A stretch of 64,000 nt of DNA from contig OZ360234.1 of NCBI GenBank assembly GCA_977017645.1, positions 20,274,001 through 20,338,000 on the forward strand, given 5' to 3'. Shown in pieces: positions 25,101 to 31,100 of this stretch (position 1 is the stretch's first letter; every line of letters starts with the position of its first letter). The position numbers and the translations under genes were made by a program. Source of the stretch: Torpedo marmorata (lineage: Eukaryota). The notes under the pieces are model-generated. The model saw only the letters and a list, made by a program, of their open reading frames with translations. It searched no databases and was not told where the DNA came from.

Positions 25101-28100
25101 AGTGCACCTCAGTAAGTACTTGGTACTTTCAGAAAATAAAATTAACATAAATCTCAATTGTGTAATCAAAGTTTTATTCAGCTACATTGAAACATGTGAA
25201 ACTTAACAGGAAATAATATGACAAGTAGTGAGTTCAAGCAAATTTCTGTACAATTATGTAAACCATGATTGATGAGCAAAGCAGTGACTTATGGAAGTAA
25301 ATCATGGGTTCAATATTGTATGAGCAACAATGCACAAATAAAACAGTATTTCTCATCAAAACTTACCACAGAAAATTATTCAAATACATAAAATATAGAA
25401 ACTTAAATGTTAAGAATTTGGTTGATGCAGTATCATTAGAGCCGATTGATGAATAGATATGTTTAAAATTCTATCTACTATTTTCACAATTACTTAAAGA
25501 GAGCAATTGCTTAAGTTCATTTTGTAATTATGGGAAATTGTTTTCTGCAAACTTGGTTGAAATTTAGCCCAGAGTATGATTTGTCTGAGAAAATTTCAAA
25601 TTGGCAAAAGGTTTTAAGTATACCTCATGAAAATTTCATAGCAAGAAAGAATGAAAATATGTATTTCGAATGAACCATAAACTTTATATTAGTTGTGTTC
25701 ATGGACTTCAATCGTATTGATAAAAGCGAGTATTTAATCAAAGATAAATGGAAAAGAAACTTGCAATTGCTTTCTCCAAATAGCTCTGAATAACTTTGAC
25801 TGAGCTTTAAACAAATTTTATTTTACAACTTGTATTTTAATGCTTTTAACTAGACCACATATTGACATTCCACTTTGCGTTTGTGCGTTCCAGTTTTGCA
25901 ATTTGCCTTTGGATGAAGGTGAAACAAAAGGAAATCAGCCAATTTTTTTCTCACCAACTCTGCCAAATCTTACGCAATCTTACATTTGGACAAGCACAAT
26001 GCAGAACTTGTTTTTATTTATTTTCAAATTGTAATAATAAGCATCCAGCTTCATGCAAGAAAAATAATGGATAAGGATAATGACTGACAAGACTGAAATC
26101 AGACCATAGAAAGGAAATGTTGCCTTCAAAATGAAAGCATATAAAATTTGTGATGTTTTCTAAAGCCAATGTTGTAATAAATACATTATGTAGTTATAAA
26201 CCCACCTCCTGTCCATCTTTATTTTGTCCTGATCCAAATATCCTGTTATACAGCGAATCCAATGAGTTATTGAAATCAGATTTTTCAAAGCTGTGGCTGT
26301 CAAGTACTTCCAATGTATGTAACACACGACCAATGGTAAAACCTGCACAAATGGGGATCAGTGCCATGAAAGATGCAAACTACTGTTTATTTTAAAAGAA
26401 ACCACACAATGCTGTGAATTTTTCATTCTGCAGATGTAGCACAGTGGAAACAGACATTTTATTTTAACAGCCATCAAATGTAATACACAACATATCAGTT
26501 GGATACAGAGTGAAATGAAGCACAGGAAAAAAATCAATTTTTGATTAGCTGAACATTGATACTCAAAAGACATTGTACTGTATGTGTAGCCTTTACAGCT
26601 ATTTAGATGGAGTATACATTCCACCATATGTCCCACTCCAACAAGATTCAACCCACAAAGTGAACCAATATTCAGGAACTATTAAGTGTGCAGGAGAGGG
26701 AAAAAAGAGAAATGGCAACAGATGCAATCACATGCATCATGTCAGTTTTTAAAACACTAACACTAACTGTGCTATGGAAGCATCAAGGGAAGGATAATGA
26801 TAATGTCAAATAAGAAAGTACTTGATACAATTTGGATGAGAGGTTGCAATGAGACAAGAGGGAATGTGATATTCTCCTTAACCTCTCACTCAAGGCAATC
26901 TCAAAGGGAGAAAGATTTAGCTTTGCACTTGGTGGTGGGTGGGGGCAACAAAGTTTTGGCATTTAAATAGTTTAAAAATATAAATGAAGATTTGGTTCAA
27001 TAATTAGGGCTAATACTTTGCAATGAGGAATCCAAATTCATTGGAAAAAAGATCAAATGCTAATGAAAAAACTATGATAAAAACTATTAAGGTGCATTTT
27101 CACGCAAACGTAATAGTTCTGACGAGAGGTAATCGGCTAGAAACGTTACCTGTTTCTCTCTTCATAGAGGTTGCTTGACTTACTAAATATTTCCAGCATT
27201 TTCTGTTTTCATTTCAGAACCATAGCATAAATTCCCCAAAGAAAAACACTGACCCAAAGAGTACAAAGAGGTTACTGGAAGCAAATAGGGTTGAGAGATG
27301 TGGCAAGAAGGTGGATTGTGGATCGAGAGCTATAAAAAAAAACAAGTTACTGTTTCCACAAATTCTTGCATTATGATTCCATTTTGCTAATATTCAAAGG
27401 CAAAATACAATTCTTGTTTGACAACCAGCTCACTGAAGACTTGCATTGAAAGAAGTCCATGTCATCAAGTTAATATTACCTGCAGTAGTTTCTTGACACT
27501 TATCAAAGGACCACCTGACCTCCACAGCTTGACCTCTTTCTTTAATCTGCTCCTCAATCTCTCGCACTTTAGCTCGAACCTGGTTTATGGATTTAGCAGA
27601 GAATAGAAGTTCAGCATCAACTTGTCTCAACATAGCACTTCTACTAAAAAATATCGTATATTTCGGCATATAAGTCGAGTATGGAAACCCTCAAAAAGCA
27701 CTCAAAAATCAGGGGTCGACTTATACGCCAGATACAAAAATGAGACCTTAAATTCAACTAAAAACACCGCTCGACGTAGATTCGGCGTATAAGACGACCC
27801 GAAGCACCTCCCCACCGCCGTGCGCCGCCATAACCCACCCAGACAATGGTAGAGCCCGAGGTTGCCGCTCCTGCCCAGTGGGCCGAGGTCCCCGCTCCTG
27901 CCAGGAGCCCGAGGTCCCCGCTCCTGCCCGGTAGGCCGAGGTCCCCGCTCCTGCCCGGTAGGCCGAGGTCCCCGCTCCTGCCCGGGAGCCGACACGTAGC
28001 CGTGGTTCCTGCACCGAGCACACTTGGGCAGCGAGGCGACTTCTTCGATATGGATGGCACCACACCCGATGTTGAGAATGGAGTTGCCGTCGCCGACTCC

Positions 28101-31100
28101 GGCTGCAGCCGATGCTGAAGACTTGGACCCAGCACCATTTGGCATCTTCCCGGCCAGAAGCAAAGGTTTTTTTTTTAAACTGTTTTTTTTACTTGCTTAA
28201 TTTACAGATTTGTTACTTGGCGATAGGGGTGTTGTAACAAAGTTTGGGATGTTGCTGGGAGGCCTGGACACCAGGCCGGCACATTCCTTGCAGAAAATTG
28301 GGGGGTTGACTTATACGCCCGATATATGATAAAACCATGAAAATGGGGACTCGACTTATACGCCGAAATATATGTTATGTCCCAAAGTGCTTCACAGTTG
28401 CTACATCAATCTTTATACTATTGTTCTGGTACCAGAGAACAGAATCTCACATACTTGTTGGGTAAATGTGGAGTTTCCCCCTGGCATGGGTAGACTGGAT
28501 GGTGCTATGGGTAAAAGATCGAGTGGGGATCCAGTCTTATTTCTGCAATCAGTCAATGAGTAATGCCATACCAAAGCACTTGGACAACACAAAACAATAC
28601 TCTGAAAAACAAGTAGCCAAATGTCAGGCAGATAGCATATCACGTCTTTTGCAGGAAGCAGAGTTTTTCAATCATGGAACAAATACAAGGTTTAAATTTA
28701 CAATTTTCATGGAATTAAATTCTGTGTTTTTTTTCCCCTTCCTCTGGACTCCATTGGCACTGACAACCTGTTATTACATCATATATATCATTATTGTTCA
28801 TGAGCAAGGTCAGATGTTGAGCATCTACAGCCCATTGTGGAGACATCATGCCGAGTCTGATCCTCATCAGTTATGGCCAATGAACACCTTGCATCAGGAT
28901 TCATTAAATAACTGCCTCAGCTAAAATTCCTGTTGCAGATCTCATGCAACAATGATTTGGTTTACTATCCAATGATTACCCATATCTGCAATTTCCACTC
29001 TGATTGGTGAAGTGACGACATAATCTGTCTGCTCTTTATTCCTTAGCCAAGAGTAGCAAAAAAAAGTAACATTCTTGTAAAAAGGAAACTAACCTTTGAA
29101 GGAAAAGAAGATCAGATTATTATTTAAATGGTGAAAGATTGCAGTATGCTGTCGTGCAAAGGGACTTTGGGAGTGCTAAGACATGAATCACAAAAGGTTG
29201 GTTTGCAGGTGCAATAGTTAATCAAGAAATTAAATGGAATGTTGGCCTTCATTGCTGGAGGGATTGAATTTAAAAGCAGGGAAGTTCTTCAACTGTACGG
29301 AGTACTGGTGAGGCCGCACCTGAAGTATCGTATGTAGTTCTGGTCTCCTTACTTGAGGAAGATTATATTAGACTTGGAGGCGGTACAGAGGTTCACCAAG
29401 GCTGATTCCGAAAACGAGGGGTTTAGCCTAAGAGGAGATATTAAGTACTCTGGAAAAGAATGAGAGGGGATTTTATGAAAATATAAAATTATGAAAGGAA
29501 TAGATAAGACAGGAGCAGGAAAGTTCTTTCCAGTGGTTGGCAAGACCAAAACTAGGGGACATGGCCTCAAGATTCAGGGGGAGTAAATTTAAAATGGAGA
29601 TAAGGAGGAACTGCTTCTCCTAGAGTGTAACGAGTCTGTGGAATTCTCTGACCAAGGAAGCAGTGGAGGCTGCCACTAAATATATTTAACACTCAGGTCG
29701 ATAGGTTTTTTCATAGTAGGAGAATCAATGGTCATGGGGAAAAGGCAAGTAGGTAAAGCTGATTCCACAACCGGATCAGCTTTGATTTTACCAAATGGCA
29801 GAGCAGGCTCGATGGGTCAGGTGGCCTACTCCTGCTATTTCTCATGTACCTATTTATCCAAACATTTCTTAGCAAACAGAGAATAGAAGAGGTAATCGAG
29901 CCTCCTTAACCCTGGATATAAAGCAATTTCTGGAGTACTACTTGCAAGCACAATTACAGCAGCTAAGTCTGGAATCTAATCTTTTTTTTTGGTTTGTATG
30001 ATTTAATGCTGCTTCGAAGTTGCACTTCAGGACAGAGGCTCAATGGGCTTCATGAAATGTAATGATGAATTGCCTTTTTCTATCCAAAGATCAAGTATCT
30101 TAAACTTTTTAATTAGGAAAAAGATTCTTAACAGTGAAAATTAACAGATAATTAGCATAATTAAAGGCTGGATCAATTGCTGACCTACCTGAAGCATGCA
30201 ACTTAATCCAAACACTACTGGACGATGCTGTGGACAAATGTAAAAATCCATAAATGGAGATTGAGGCTGGGTGGCTCCATTGGGTGGTGGTGTTGGAGTT
30301 GGAGGCAAGGTATTTGCAGTGGGTGCTGGAATCACATGGGACTGATGCCCTCCTGTTACATTACTACCACTTTCACCTAGCAGCATAGAGAGACGTCGGG
30401 TACAGAAGTAGGCCAGACGTCTCGACAGATATGCAGATTGCACGAACTCTCCCGAGTACTAAACAGAAAGAAAAACAAATAAATTACAAATTTACGTCCT
30501 AAAGGATTCTCAATTTTTAGTAAATCAACAGTGATGCTCCACCACGAGAAAAGCTAACAATGTTGGATTAGCTGTGTTGAAATGTTACATTTCTACATGA
30601 TTAATCCAACATTATTAACATTATTTGTAAAGCAAAAACAAAACTGAACTTCAGATATAAAAACTGAAAATTTTAGGAATAATCAACAAGTGCAATACGA
30701 AGAGGGGAAGTTTGGAAGGAACAAAGTAAATGCTGGGCATATGGTGGAAACCAAGTTGTCAACATAACACAATTACATTTGCCACTATTGAAATGAGAGG
30801 AATGAATGCCAGTCAATCTGTCTATAGGAAGATGATCAAGGAAACTGAGAGAATAATATACAGGAACTATGAAATGTAAAACACTGGTGGCTACTGAAAC
30901 AAAAATAATGTTGGAAATAATCAGCTGGTCAGGCAGCAACTCTGGAGAGAAAAACTGAATTAATGTTACAGGTGTTTAATTTTGAATCAGAACTGGCCAG
31001 TTCTGACACAAAAAGAAACGGCTGGTTATCTAAAGGTCAACAAGAAAATCTGCAGATGCTGGGGTCGAGTGCAGTACACAAACGTGCTGGAGAAACTCAG

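What the first reader, a model, noticed from the sequence alone, without database searches (positions are those of the whole stretch)
27654..28375. Tc2/pogo-type transposon carrying the start of the sex-determination gene DMRT1
Seen: 27-bp TIRs and TA duplications enclose a minus-strand segment reading [20 protein letters not shown] with a single 1-nt loss. An upstream ATG gives MPNG... and sits in frame with LPKCARC. Known: KSPR[LM][11 protein letters not shown] is specific to DMRT1 among DM-domain genes (DMRT2/3/A read [13 protein letters not shown]), and duplicated or truncated DMRT1 copies have become sex determiners (dmy, dm-w). Inference: a second, independent superfamily has captured a first exon. 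The DM domain is cut after about 14 residues, so it is not functional here, but longer copies may exist elsewhere.
Basis: partly seen in the sequence, partly recalled or inferred. Interest (0 to 1): 0.88.

Follow-up and report, generated by a model that had tools for sequence, protein, structure and literature searches.

The report
Transposons mass-copying a sex-gene fragment
In this ray genome a cut-and-paste jumping element picked up the start of the testis gene dmrt1, likely passed it on to a second kind of jumping element, and the two scattered broken copies across the chromosomes, likely thousands and likely without making a working sex-determining protein.

Summary
Observation confirmed. 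Window 27654-28375 is a non-autonomous Passer-type (pogo, DD35D) element with 27-bp TIRs and TA duplications. It carries genomic dmrt1: 5'UTR, the start of exon 1 and an intron-1 repeat. The native gene lies on contig C2 in the dmrt1-dmrt3-dmrt2 cluster. The element belongs to a large dispersed family (2451 first-look candidates; 40 of 40 scored were 95-100% alike). All Passer-type copies trace to one capture, then lost pieces stepwise. Three rare early copies reach the end of the zinc module, each with a lesion, and no copy with a whole dmrt1 DM domain was found. A second TA-flanked family with Tigger-like ends (1116 candidates) carries the already-deleted cargo, which points to a relay between vectors. 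The cargo evolves neutrally, its CpGs decay, and it lacks the native splice donor and the upstream promoter-like motifs. Separately, an 8-bp-TSD hAT-like family (134 candidates) carries the whole DM domain of dmrtA2, and the window holds a greatwall/MASTL 5' capture. Best reading: a passive, high-copy Pack-TIR. A sex-determining role is unsupported. Small-RNA cross-talk with dmrt1 is untested.

The parts
27652..27653 (.). TA target-site duplication
27654..27680 (-). terminal inverted repeat (vector right end)
   Evidence: 24 of 27 match to the other TIR
27654..27851 (-). Passer vector right end with subterminal repeats of the TIR core
   Evidence: 27652-27774 matches the near-full-length Passer copy L168 at 76%; subterminal repeats
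27852..27991 (-). GC-rich 27-bp tandem repeat captured from dmrt1 intron 1
   Evidence: joined to exon 1 through a short shared word (CGGCTC), which removed the rest of exon 1 and its splice donor
27986..28145 (-). captured dmrt1 exon-1 coding piece: ATG to the first 14-15 DM residues, with a 44-bp and a 1-bp deletion
   Evidence: Pfam DM positions 3-15 only, below cut-off
28146..28303 (-). captured dmrt1 sequence upstream of the ATG (likely 5'UTR); the family breakpoint lies 186 bp before the native ATG
28304..28375 (-). Passer vector left end, TIR at 28349-28375
   Evidence: 28298-28342 matches L168 at 80%
28376..28377 (.). TA target-site duplication

Best explanation
This is one copy of a high-copy, non-autonomous Passer (pogo) transposon family whose interior was replaced by genomic dmrt1 exon 1 plus the start of intron 1, likely once and by template switching during repair, and the cargo likely rides along as neutral, non-coding freight. 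Shown: the cargo's source, shared breakpoints, nested deletions, TIRs, TA sites, the related transposase family and neutral decay. Inferred: capture by template switch; mobilisation in trans by the related transposase; renewal of the ends from successive autonomous subfamilies; hand-over of the deleted cargo to a second, Tigger-like vector.
For: Native single gene with full DM, splice donor, exons 2 onward and dmrt3/dmrt2 neighbours. No TIR pattern or vector match in 20 kb around native exon 1. The intron repeat inside the cargo means a DNA-level capture. Cargo-free elements with the same ends hold BrkDBD, HTH_Tnp_Tc5 and DDE_1 remnants with DD35D spacing. Left junction has 2-3 bp of microhomology and the right junction is shared. 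Both TIRs were found in 22 of 30 loci, and 21 of these 22 have TA on both sides with unrelated flanks. Deletions are nested from L062-L064 through L065 and L016/L018 to the window type. Synonymous changes match neutral expectation: 27 vs 24.7 of 76 distinct changes, 13 vs 14.3 of 50 singletons, and 9 vs 9.3 of 27 in copies picked on the vector part. CpG decay in the cargo is 4.4-5.7 times the non-CpG rate, against 3.2-3.9 in vector parts. Second vector: 21 of 29 loci and 29 of 30 loci carry only deleted cargo starting further in. Monophyly of the cargo carriers' Passer ends is rejected, p-AU 1.2e-5.
Against: Neutrality was tested on 30 and 13 copies out of thousands, so a few exapted copies could hide. 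The 44+1 bp deletions restore the frame in the window's subfamily (about 1 in 3 by chance). Both vectors keep the same ATG-proximal core, which could mean an advantage. The TA count leans on a pattern that includes TA (up to 5 mismatches allowed). The AU group was named after I saw the tree, and convergence of transposase-binding sites could add to the signal. One deletion (at native 1502) occurs in both vectors while L237 lacks it, so it recurred or moved back. Copy numbers are first-look candidates, not counted insertions.
Confidence: 0.8

Rival explanations
1. The cargo helps the elements spread or enters conflict with the host: silencing RNAs against thousands of copies would also hit the 5' end of dmrt1 mRNA, so the host would moderate silencing or dmrt1 would be tuned in trans.
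For: Copies match native dmrt1 at 97-100% over 66-71 bases around the ATG. The core is kept through two vectors. Bat Helitrons with gene 5' ends reach higher copy numbers (PMC4224331, passages). Cross-talk is reported in maize (10.1101/777037, abstract).
Against: Cargo CpGs decay at least as fast as vector CpGs, so there is no sign of escape from methylation. Cargo-free vector copies are also abundant (1251 candidates). The maize abstract reports no increase in copy number for TEs with captured fragments.
Confidence: 0.12
2. One long copy was exapted as a DM-domain gene, in the manner of dmy or dm-W: either L062 (ATG-led 199-codon frame) or one of the dmrtA2-carrying hAT-like copies used as a spliced exon.
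For: L062 has an open frame with Pfam DM 3-43. 8 of 40 dmrtA2 copies keep all zinc ligands in an open frame, and the copies read in full keep the native splice donor. dm-W is a dmrt1-transposon chimera (PMC9250109, abstract).
Against: L062 has Asn for the first zinc Cys and lacks the ERQRVMAAQ tail. L063 and L064 have lost ligands, or the ATG, or carry stops. dmrtA2 copies show no in-frame ATG upstream. No protein of the derived frame was found among 7 candidates of 80-258 aa. Orthologs of known sex-determining genes are not on shark and ray sex chromosomes (PMC12318234, passages).
Confidence: 0.05
3. Ordinary segmental duplications or retrocopies of dmrt1, or an assembly artefact.
For: None beyond the large genome size (6.2 Gb).
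Against: Copies end at TIRs with distinct flanks on 18 contigs, contain intron DNA, and contigs of independent public runs bridge the same junctions.
Confidence: 0.02

Closest known systems
Animal Pack-TIRs (Tan et al. 2021, PMC8277862; passages and section 7 read)
   Same: A TIR element (hAT or Tc/mariner) holding host DNA copied from a distant parent gene; multicopy cases favour GC-rich cargo.
   Different: Only four of their cases were multicopy, and the example had three copies. Here there are about 120 distinct places in hand and thousands of candidates, with nested subfamilies and a second vector.
HelibatN3 and other bat Helitrons (PMC4224331, passages)
   Same: [quoted passage not shown]
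   Different: Rolling-circle rather than cut-and-paste, and they include promoters. Here the promoter-like motifs lie outside the breakpoint (their promoter role is inferred).
Passer family of pogo transposons (PMC7386202, PMC9976928; passages)
   Same: TA TSD, TIR under 30 bp, BrkDBD plus HTH_Tnp_Tc5, DD35D in the parent elements.
   Different: The window copy has no transposase; its interior is host cargo.
dm-W of Xenopus (PMC9250109, abstract) and dmy of medaka (recalled)
   Same: Partial duplicates of dmrt1; dm-W is fused to transposon-derived sequence.
   Different: Those keep a whole DM domain and are single, sex-linked and functional. Here the DM domain is cut, and the copies are dispersed and neutral.

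Membership tests
Passer (pogo) non-autonomous derivative | TA target-site duplication | tested here: met
   window TA/TA; 21 of 22 copies with both TIRs, out of 30 examined
Passer (pogo) non-autonomous derivative | short TIRs under 30 bp | tested here: met
   27 bp, 24 matched
Passer (pogo) non-autonomous derivative | parent transposase with BrkDBD, HTH_Tnp_Tc5 and DDE_1, DD35D | tested here: met
   elements with the same ends: Pfam hits, 35-residue spacing, near-intact copy with one stop in dmrt1 intron 2
Passer (pogo) non-autonomous derivative | transposase groups with Passer in a phylogeny | not tested
   no named Passer reference sequences in hand
Pack-TIR | internal DNA copied from a host locus not itself inside the element | tested here: met
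Pack-TIR | multicopy by transposition (distinct flanks and TSDs) | tested here: met
DMRT1 origin of cargo | [16 protein letters not shown] signature, orthology and synteny | tested here: met
   human DMRT1 4yj0, E 1.6e-29; batoid and shark DMRT1 proteins are the close full-cover hits; the eight other DM genes seen read RTPK, RSPK or RIPK
dmy/dm-W-type sex determiner | complete DM domain | tested here: not met
   only the native locus holds the 3' part among 5 of 5 candidates; L062-L065 are damaged
dmy/dm-W-type sex determiner | sex linkage and gonadal expression | not testable with these tools
   no sexed reads or raw gonad RNA available
Tigger-type MITE (second vector) | ends tied to a Tigger transposase | tested here: inconclusive
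   TA TSD in 12 of 13, 18 of 25 and 8 of 14 copies with both ends; no match to 40 transposase loci; the Tigger label is recalled from end motifs
hAT (dmrtA2 carrier) | 8-bp TSD and short TIRs | tested here: met
   19 of 20 copies with both ends, out of 40 examined
hAT (dmrtA2 carrier) | hAT transposase partner | not tested

The most novel reading that the evidence does not exclude
Host gene 5' ends, including two DM-domain regulators, are being relayed between cut-and-paste families and kept alive across transposon waves because they pay off: thousands of dmrt1 look-alikes feed gonadal small RNAs that tune dmrt1 or shield the elements, or one of the whole-DM dmrtA2 copies has become a new DM gene.
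Probability: 0.15. Interest if true: 0.92.

Novelty: new variant of a known kind. Interest (0 to 1): 0.64.

Why it matters
Published animal Pack-TIRs are almost all single copies. This genome shows cut-and-paste elements amplifying an exon of a key gonadal regulator likely into the thousands, apparently handing it between vector families, and separately spreading a whole DM domain. It gives a vertebrate test case for the gene-capture silencing conflict described in maize, and a supply of DM duplicates of the kind that became sex determiners elsewhere. It also warns that dmrt1 probes, read mapping and DM-gene counts in this lineage will be confounded (87 Pfam DM hits).

Tried and rejected
Exact pattern count in the genome: no usable answer, so copy numbers rest on first-look candidates, which depend on the query (2451 for 186 bp; 528 for 71 bp). 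Density check: 1 cargo copy in 699,801 bases not picked for it (it lies in dmrt1 intron 2) and 0 in 200,000 more. That allows roughly 200 to 40,000 copies (my Poisson arithmetic, no call). Expression: no RNA holder listed. X10 and X12 are only guessed to be RNA and are contigs, so says nothing on expression. First partner search by HTH_Tnp_Tc5 found other pogo families with different TIRs; rejected as the direct partner. One search was meant for the left end of the second vector but covered the cargo's 3' junction and GC repeats, so its 1971 candidates are not a count of that family. Dating the capture against Narcine by the shared loss of two residues (G-V): rejected as weak, because that 6-bp unit slips repeatedly among copies. 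The near-intact Passer in dmrt1 intron 2 as donor of the original capture: its ends group with late, not early, copies, so not favoured. Escape from methylation: not supported. Earlier findings of the scan: none relevant. Literature: searches listed no report of this family; timed out. Subscription journals and repeat libraries such as Repbase or Dfam were not searchable, and no supplements were read, so an existing repeat-library entry cannot be excluded.

Full report
Observation. The element spans 27654-28375 exactly as reported. Its 27-bp TIRs match at 24 positions and TA flanks both ends. The minus strand carries MPNGAG...[21 protein letters not shown] in one frame and SKKSPR in another.

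Source gene. A Pfam DM search of the genome (6.2 Gb) gave 87 matches among 150 scored. One, L043 on contig C2, reads [10 protein letters not shown]...[24 protein letters not shown]...AAQ up to a splice donor. Exon 2 follows 2 kb on and later exons map over about 185 kb. DM genes that I read as dmrt3 and dmrt2 (names from recalled motifs) lie 230 and 360 kb downstream. Close full-cover relatives are batoid and shark DMRT1 proteins, with Narcine bancroftii at 88%, so the host is a ray, likely an electric ray. The window segment matches this gene at 271 of 360 columns, E 1e-65. The 27-bp repeat that follows it matches a GC-rich array at the start of intron 1, so the capture was from DNA, not mRNA.

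Family. The 186-bp cargo query gave 2451 first-look candidates; the 40 scored were 95-100% alike, on 18 contigs. Of 30 loci fetched, 22 showed both TIRs by pattern and 21 of those had TA on both sides. About 120 distinct cargo-bearing places are in hand (137 hits, 123 distinct contexts, native included). Contigs of runs under two other organism codes (C in X12, F in X14) bridge the derived junctions and are more divergent: 153 of 381 and 152 of 344 records are under 90% alike, against 34 of 186 and 21 of 215 in X10 and X11. The family is therefore likely shared with related species; the names are coded.

Vector. Elements with the same ends but no cargo hold transposase remnants. L168 (1790 bp) and L165 give BrkDBD, HTH_Tnp_Tc5 and DDE_1 with 35 residues between the last two aspartates, the marks of the Passer family of pogo (PMC7386202, PMC9976928; passages). 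The cargo replaced the interior between a left junction with 2-3 bp of microhomology, 186 bp before the native ATG, and a right junction in the intron repeat. A GC box-like word, CCAAT and an E-box lie 57-92 bp outside that breakpoint, so the likely core promoter was left behind.

History. Three copies (L062-L064; 4 of 4 hits with the native gene) keep exon 1 to ...KCNLI, which covers the zinc module without the tail. L065 adds a 44-bp deletion. The window's subfamily adds a 1-bp loss and a cut after GYVSA. The copies keep residues seen in other rays (G-V, Ser) that the native gene has since changed, so the capture likely predates those changes. In a tree of element ends, cargo carriers group with three successive types of cargo-free or autonomous ends, and a single clade of carriers is rejected (p-AU 1.2e-5; 19 vs 16 rows, a subset of the 45). 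I infer that the ends were renewed from later autonomous subfamilies; convergence is not excluded.

Relay. A search with the native ATG region returned mostly another family: 21 of 29 loci have different TA-flanked ends, 2 are Passer and 6 were unclassified. Its cargo starts 53 bp before the ATG or nearer and, where it could be traced, has the 44-bp deletion. A query on its vector part gave 1116 candidates, and 29 of 30 loci carried cargo (query locus included). The ends look Tigger-like from memory; no transposase was tied to them. The simplest reading is re-capture from the Passer family.

Function. No copy with a whole dmrt1 DM domain was found. L062 has a 199-codon frame but Asn for the first zinc Cys and no tail. 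Substitutions fit neutrality, and CpGs in the cargo decay 4.4-5.7 times faster than other sites, which implies germ-line methylation. The native splice donor is gone in all aligned copies. In sharks and rays, orthologs of known sex-determining genes are not on the sex chromosomes, and Dmrt1 was not detected in bamboo shark gonadal primordia (PMC12318234, passages). Passive cargo is the best reading (0.8). Small-RNA cross-talk and exaptation of a rare copy remain open and untested.

Other captures. Of 50 DM hits examined, 40 are copies of dmrtA2 exon 1 plus about 0.3-0.6 kb of intron inside an element with 8-bp TSDs (19 of 20 with both ends); 8 of 40 keep an open DM domain with all ligands. The family gave 134 candidates. 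The window also holds an 8-bp-TSD element with the 5' coding end of greatwall/MASTL (E 1e-7). First-exon capture is thus recurrent here; the DM emphasis is partly my search bias.

Comparison and verdict. It works like a Pack-TIR and meets the tested criteria. Tan et al. found only four multicopy cases in their screen of 100 animal genomes, with three copies in their example (PMC8277862, section 7). The same anatomy at about a thousand copies is known from bat Helitrons (PMC4224331, passages). What is new is the scale for a cut-and-paste element, the apparent relay between vectors, and the identity of the cargo. My searches listed no report of it. New variant of a known kind; interest 0.64.

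Noticed in passing
window 8336-9112 (coding piece about 8650-8866, minus strand): hAT-like element (8-bp TSD, 7 of 8 matched) carrying the 5' coding end of greatwall kinase/MASTL; best PDB hit is greatwall, E 1e-7. Copy number not tested.
   Followed up: partly
window 4902-6409: TA-flanked element related to the second vector that holds only dmrt1 intron-1-type repeat units and the inner GC repeat of the cargo family, with a nested 8-bp-TSD insertion at 5219-5855. 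Possibly a third-hand relay.
   Followed up: partly
L035-L060, L115-L133 (native L034, C2:256.48 Mb): hAT-like family carrying the whole DM domain of dmrtA2 with its splice donor; 134 candidates; 8 of 40 with open DM domain.
   Followed up: yes
L040 oriented about 1200-1470: The part of the dmrtA2 carrier between the TIR and the dmrtA2 cargo has CRE-like and E2F-like words (recalled motifs) and matches nothing else held; it may be a second captured promoter.
   Followed up: partly
G000:C2:246466836-246468883 (minus), dmrt1 intron 2: Near-intact Passer element, one stop in the transposase frame, with ends matching the late cargo subfamily; a cargo-carrying copy lies 38 kb further on in the same intron.
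   Followed up: partly
C2:246.43-246.79 Mb and C22:158.07-158.18 Mb: Two three-gene DM clusters in like order (L043-L033-L037 and L055-L031-L038), the second possibly a retained paralogous cluster; also L057 beside dmrtA2.
   Followed up: no
L114 (C79:10.33 Mb): DM hit (Pfam 1-38) that is neither a dmrt1 nor a dmrtA2 copy; unclassified.
   Followed up: no
window 117-269 and 14692-14893: Long near-perfect inverted repeats with short spacers (69-bp and 99-bp arms).
   Followed up: no
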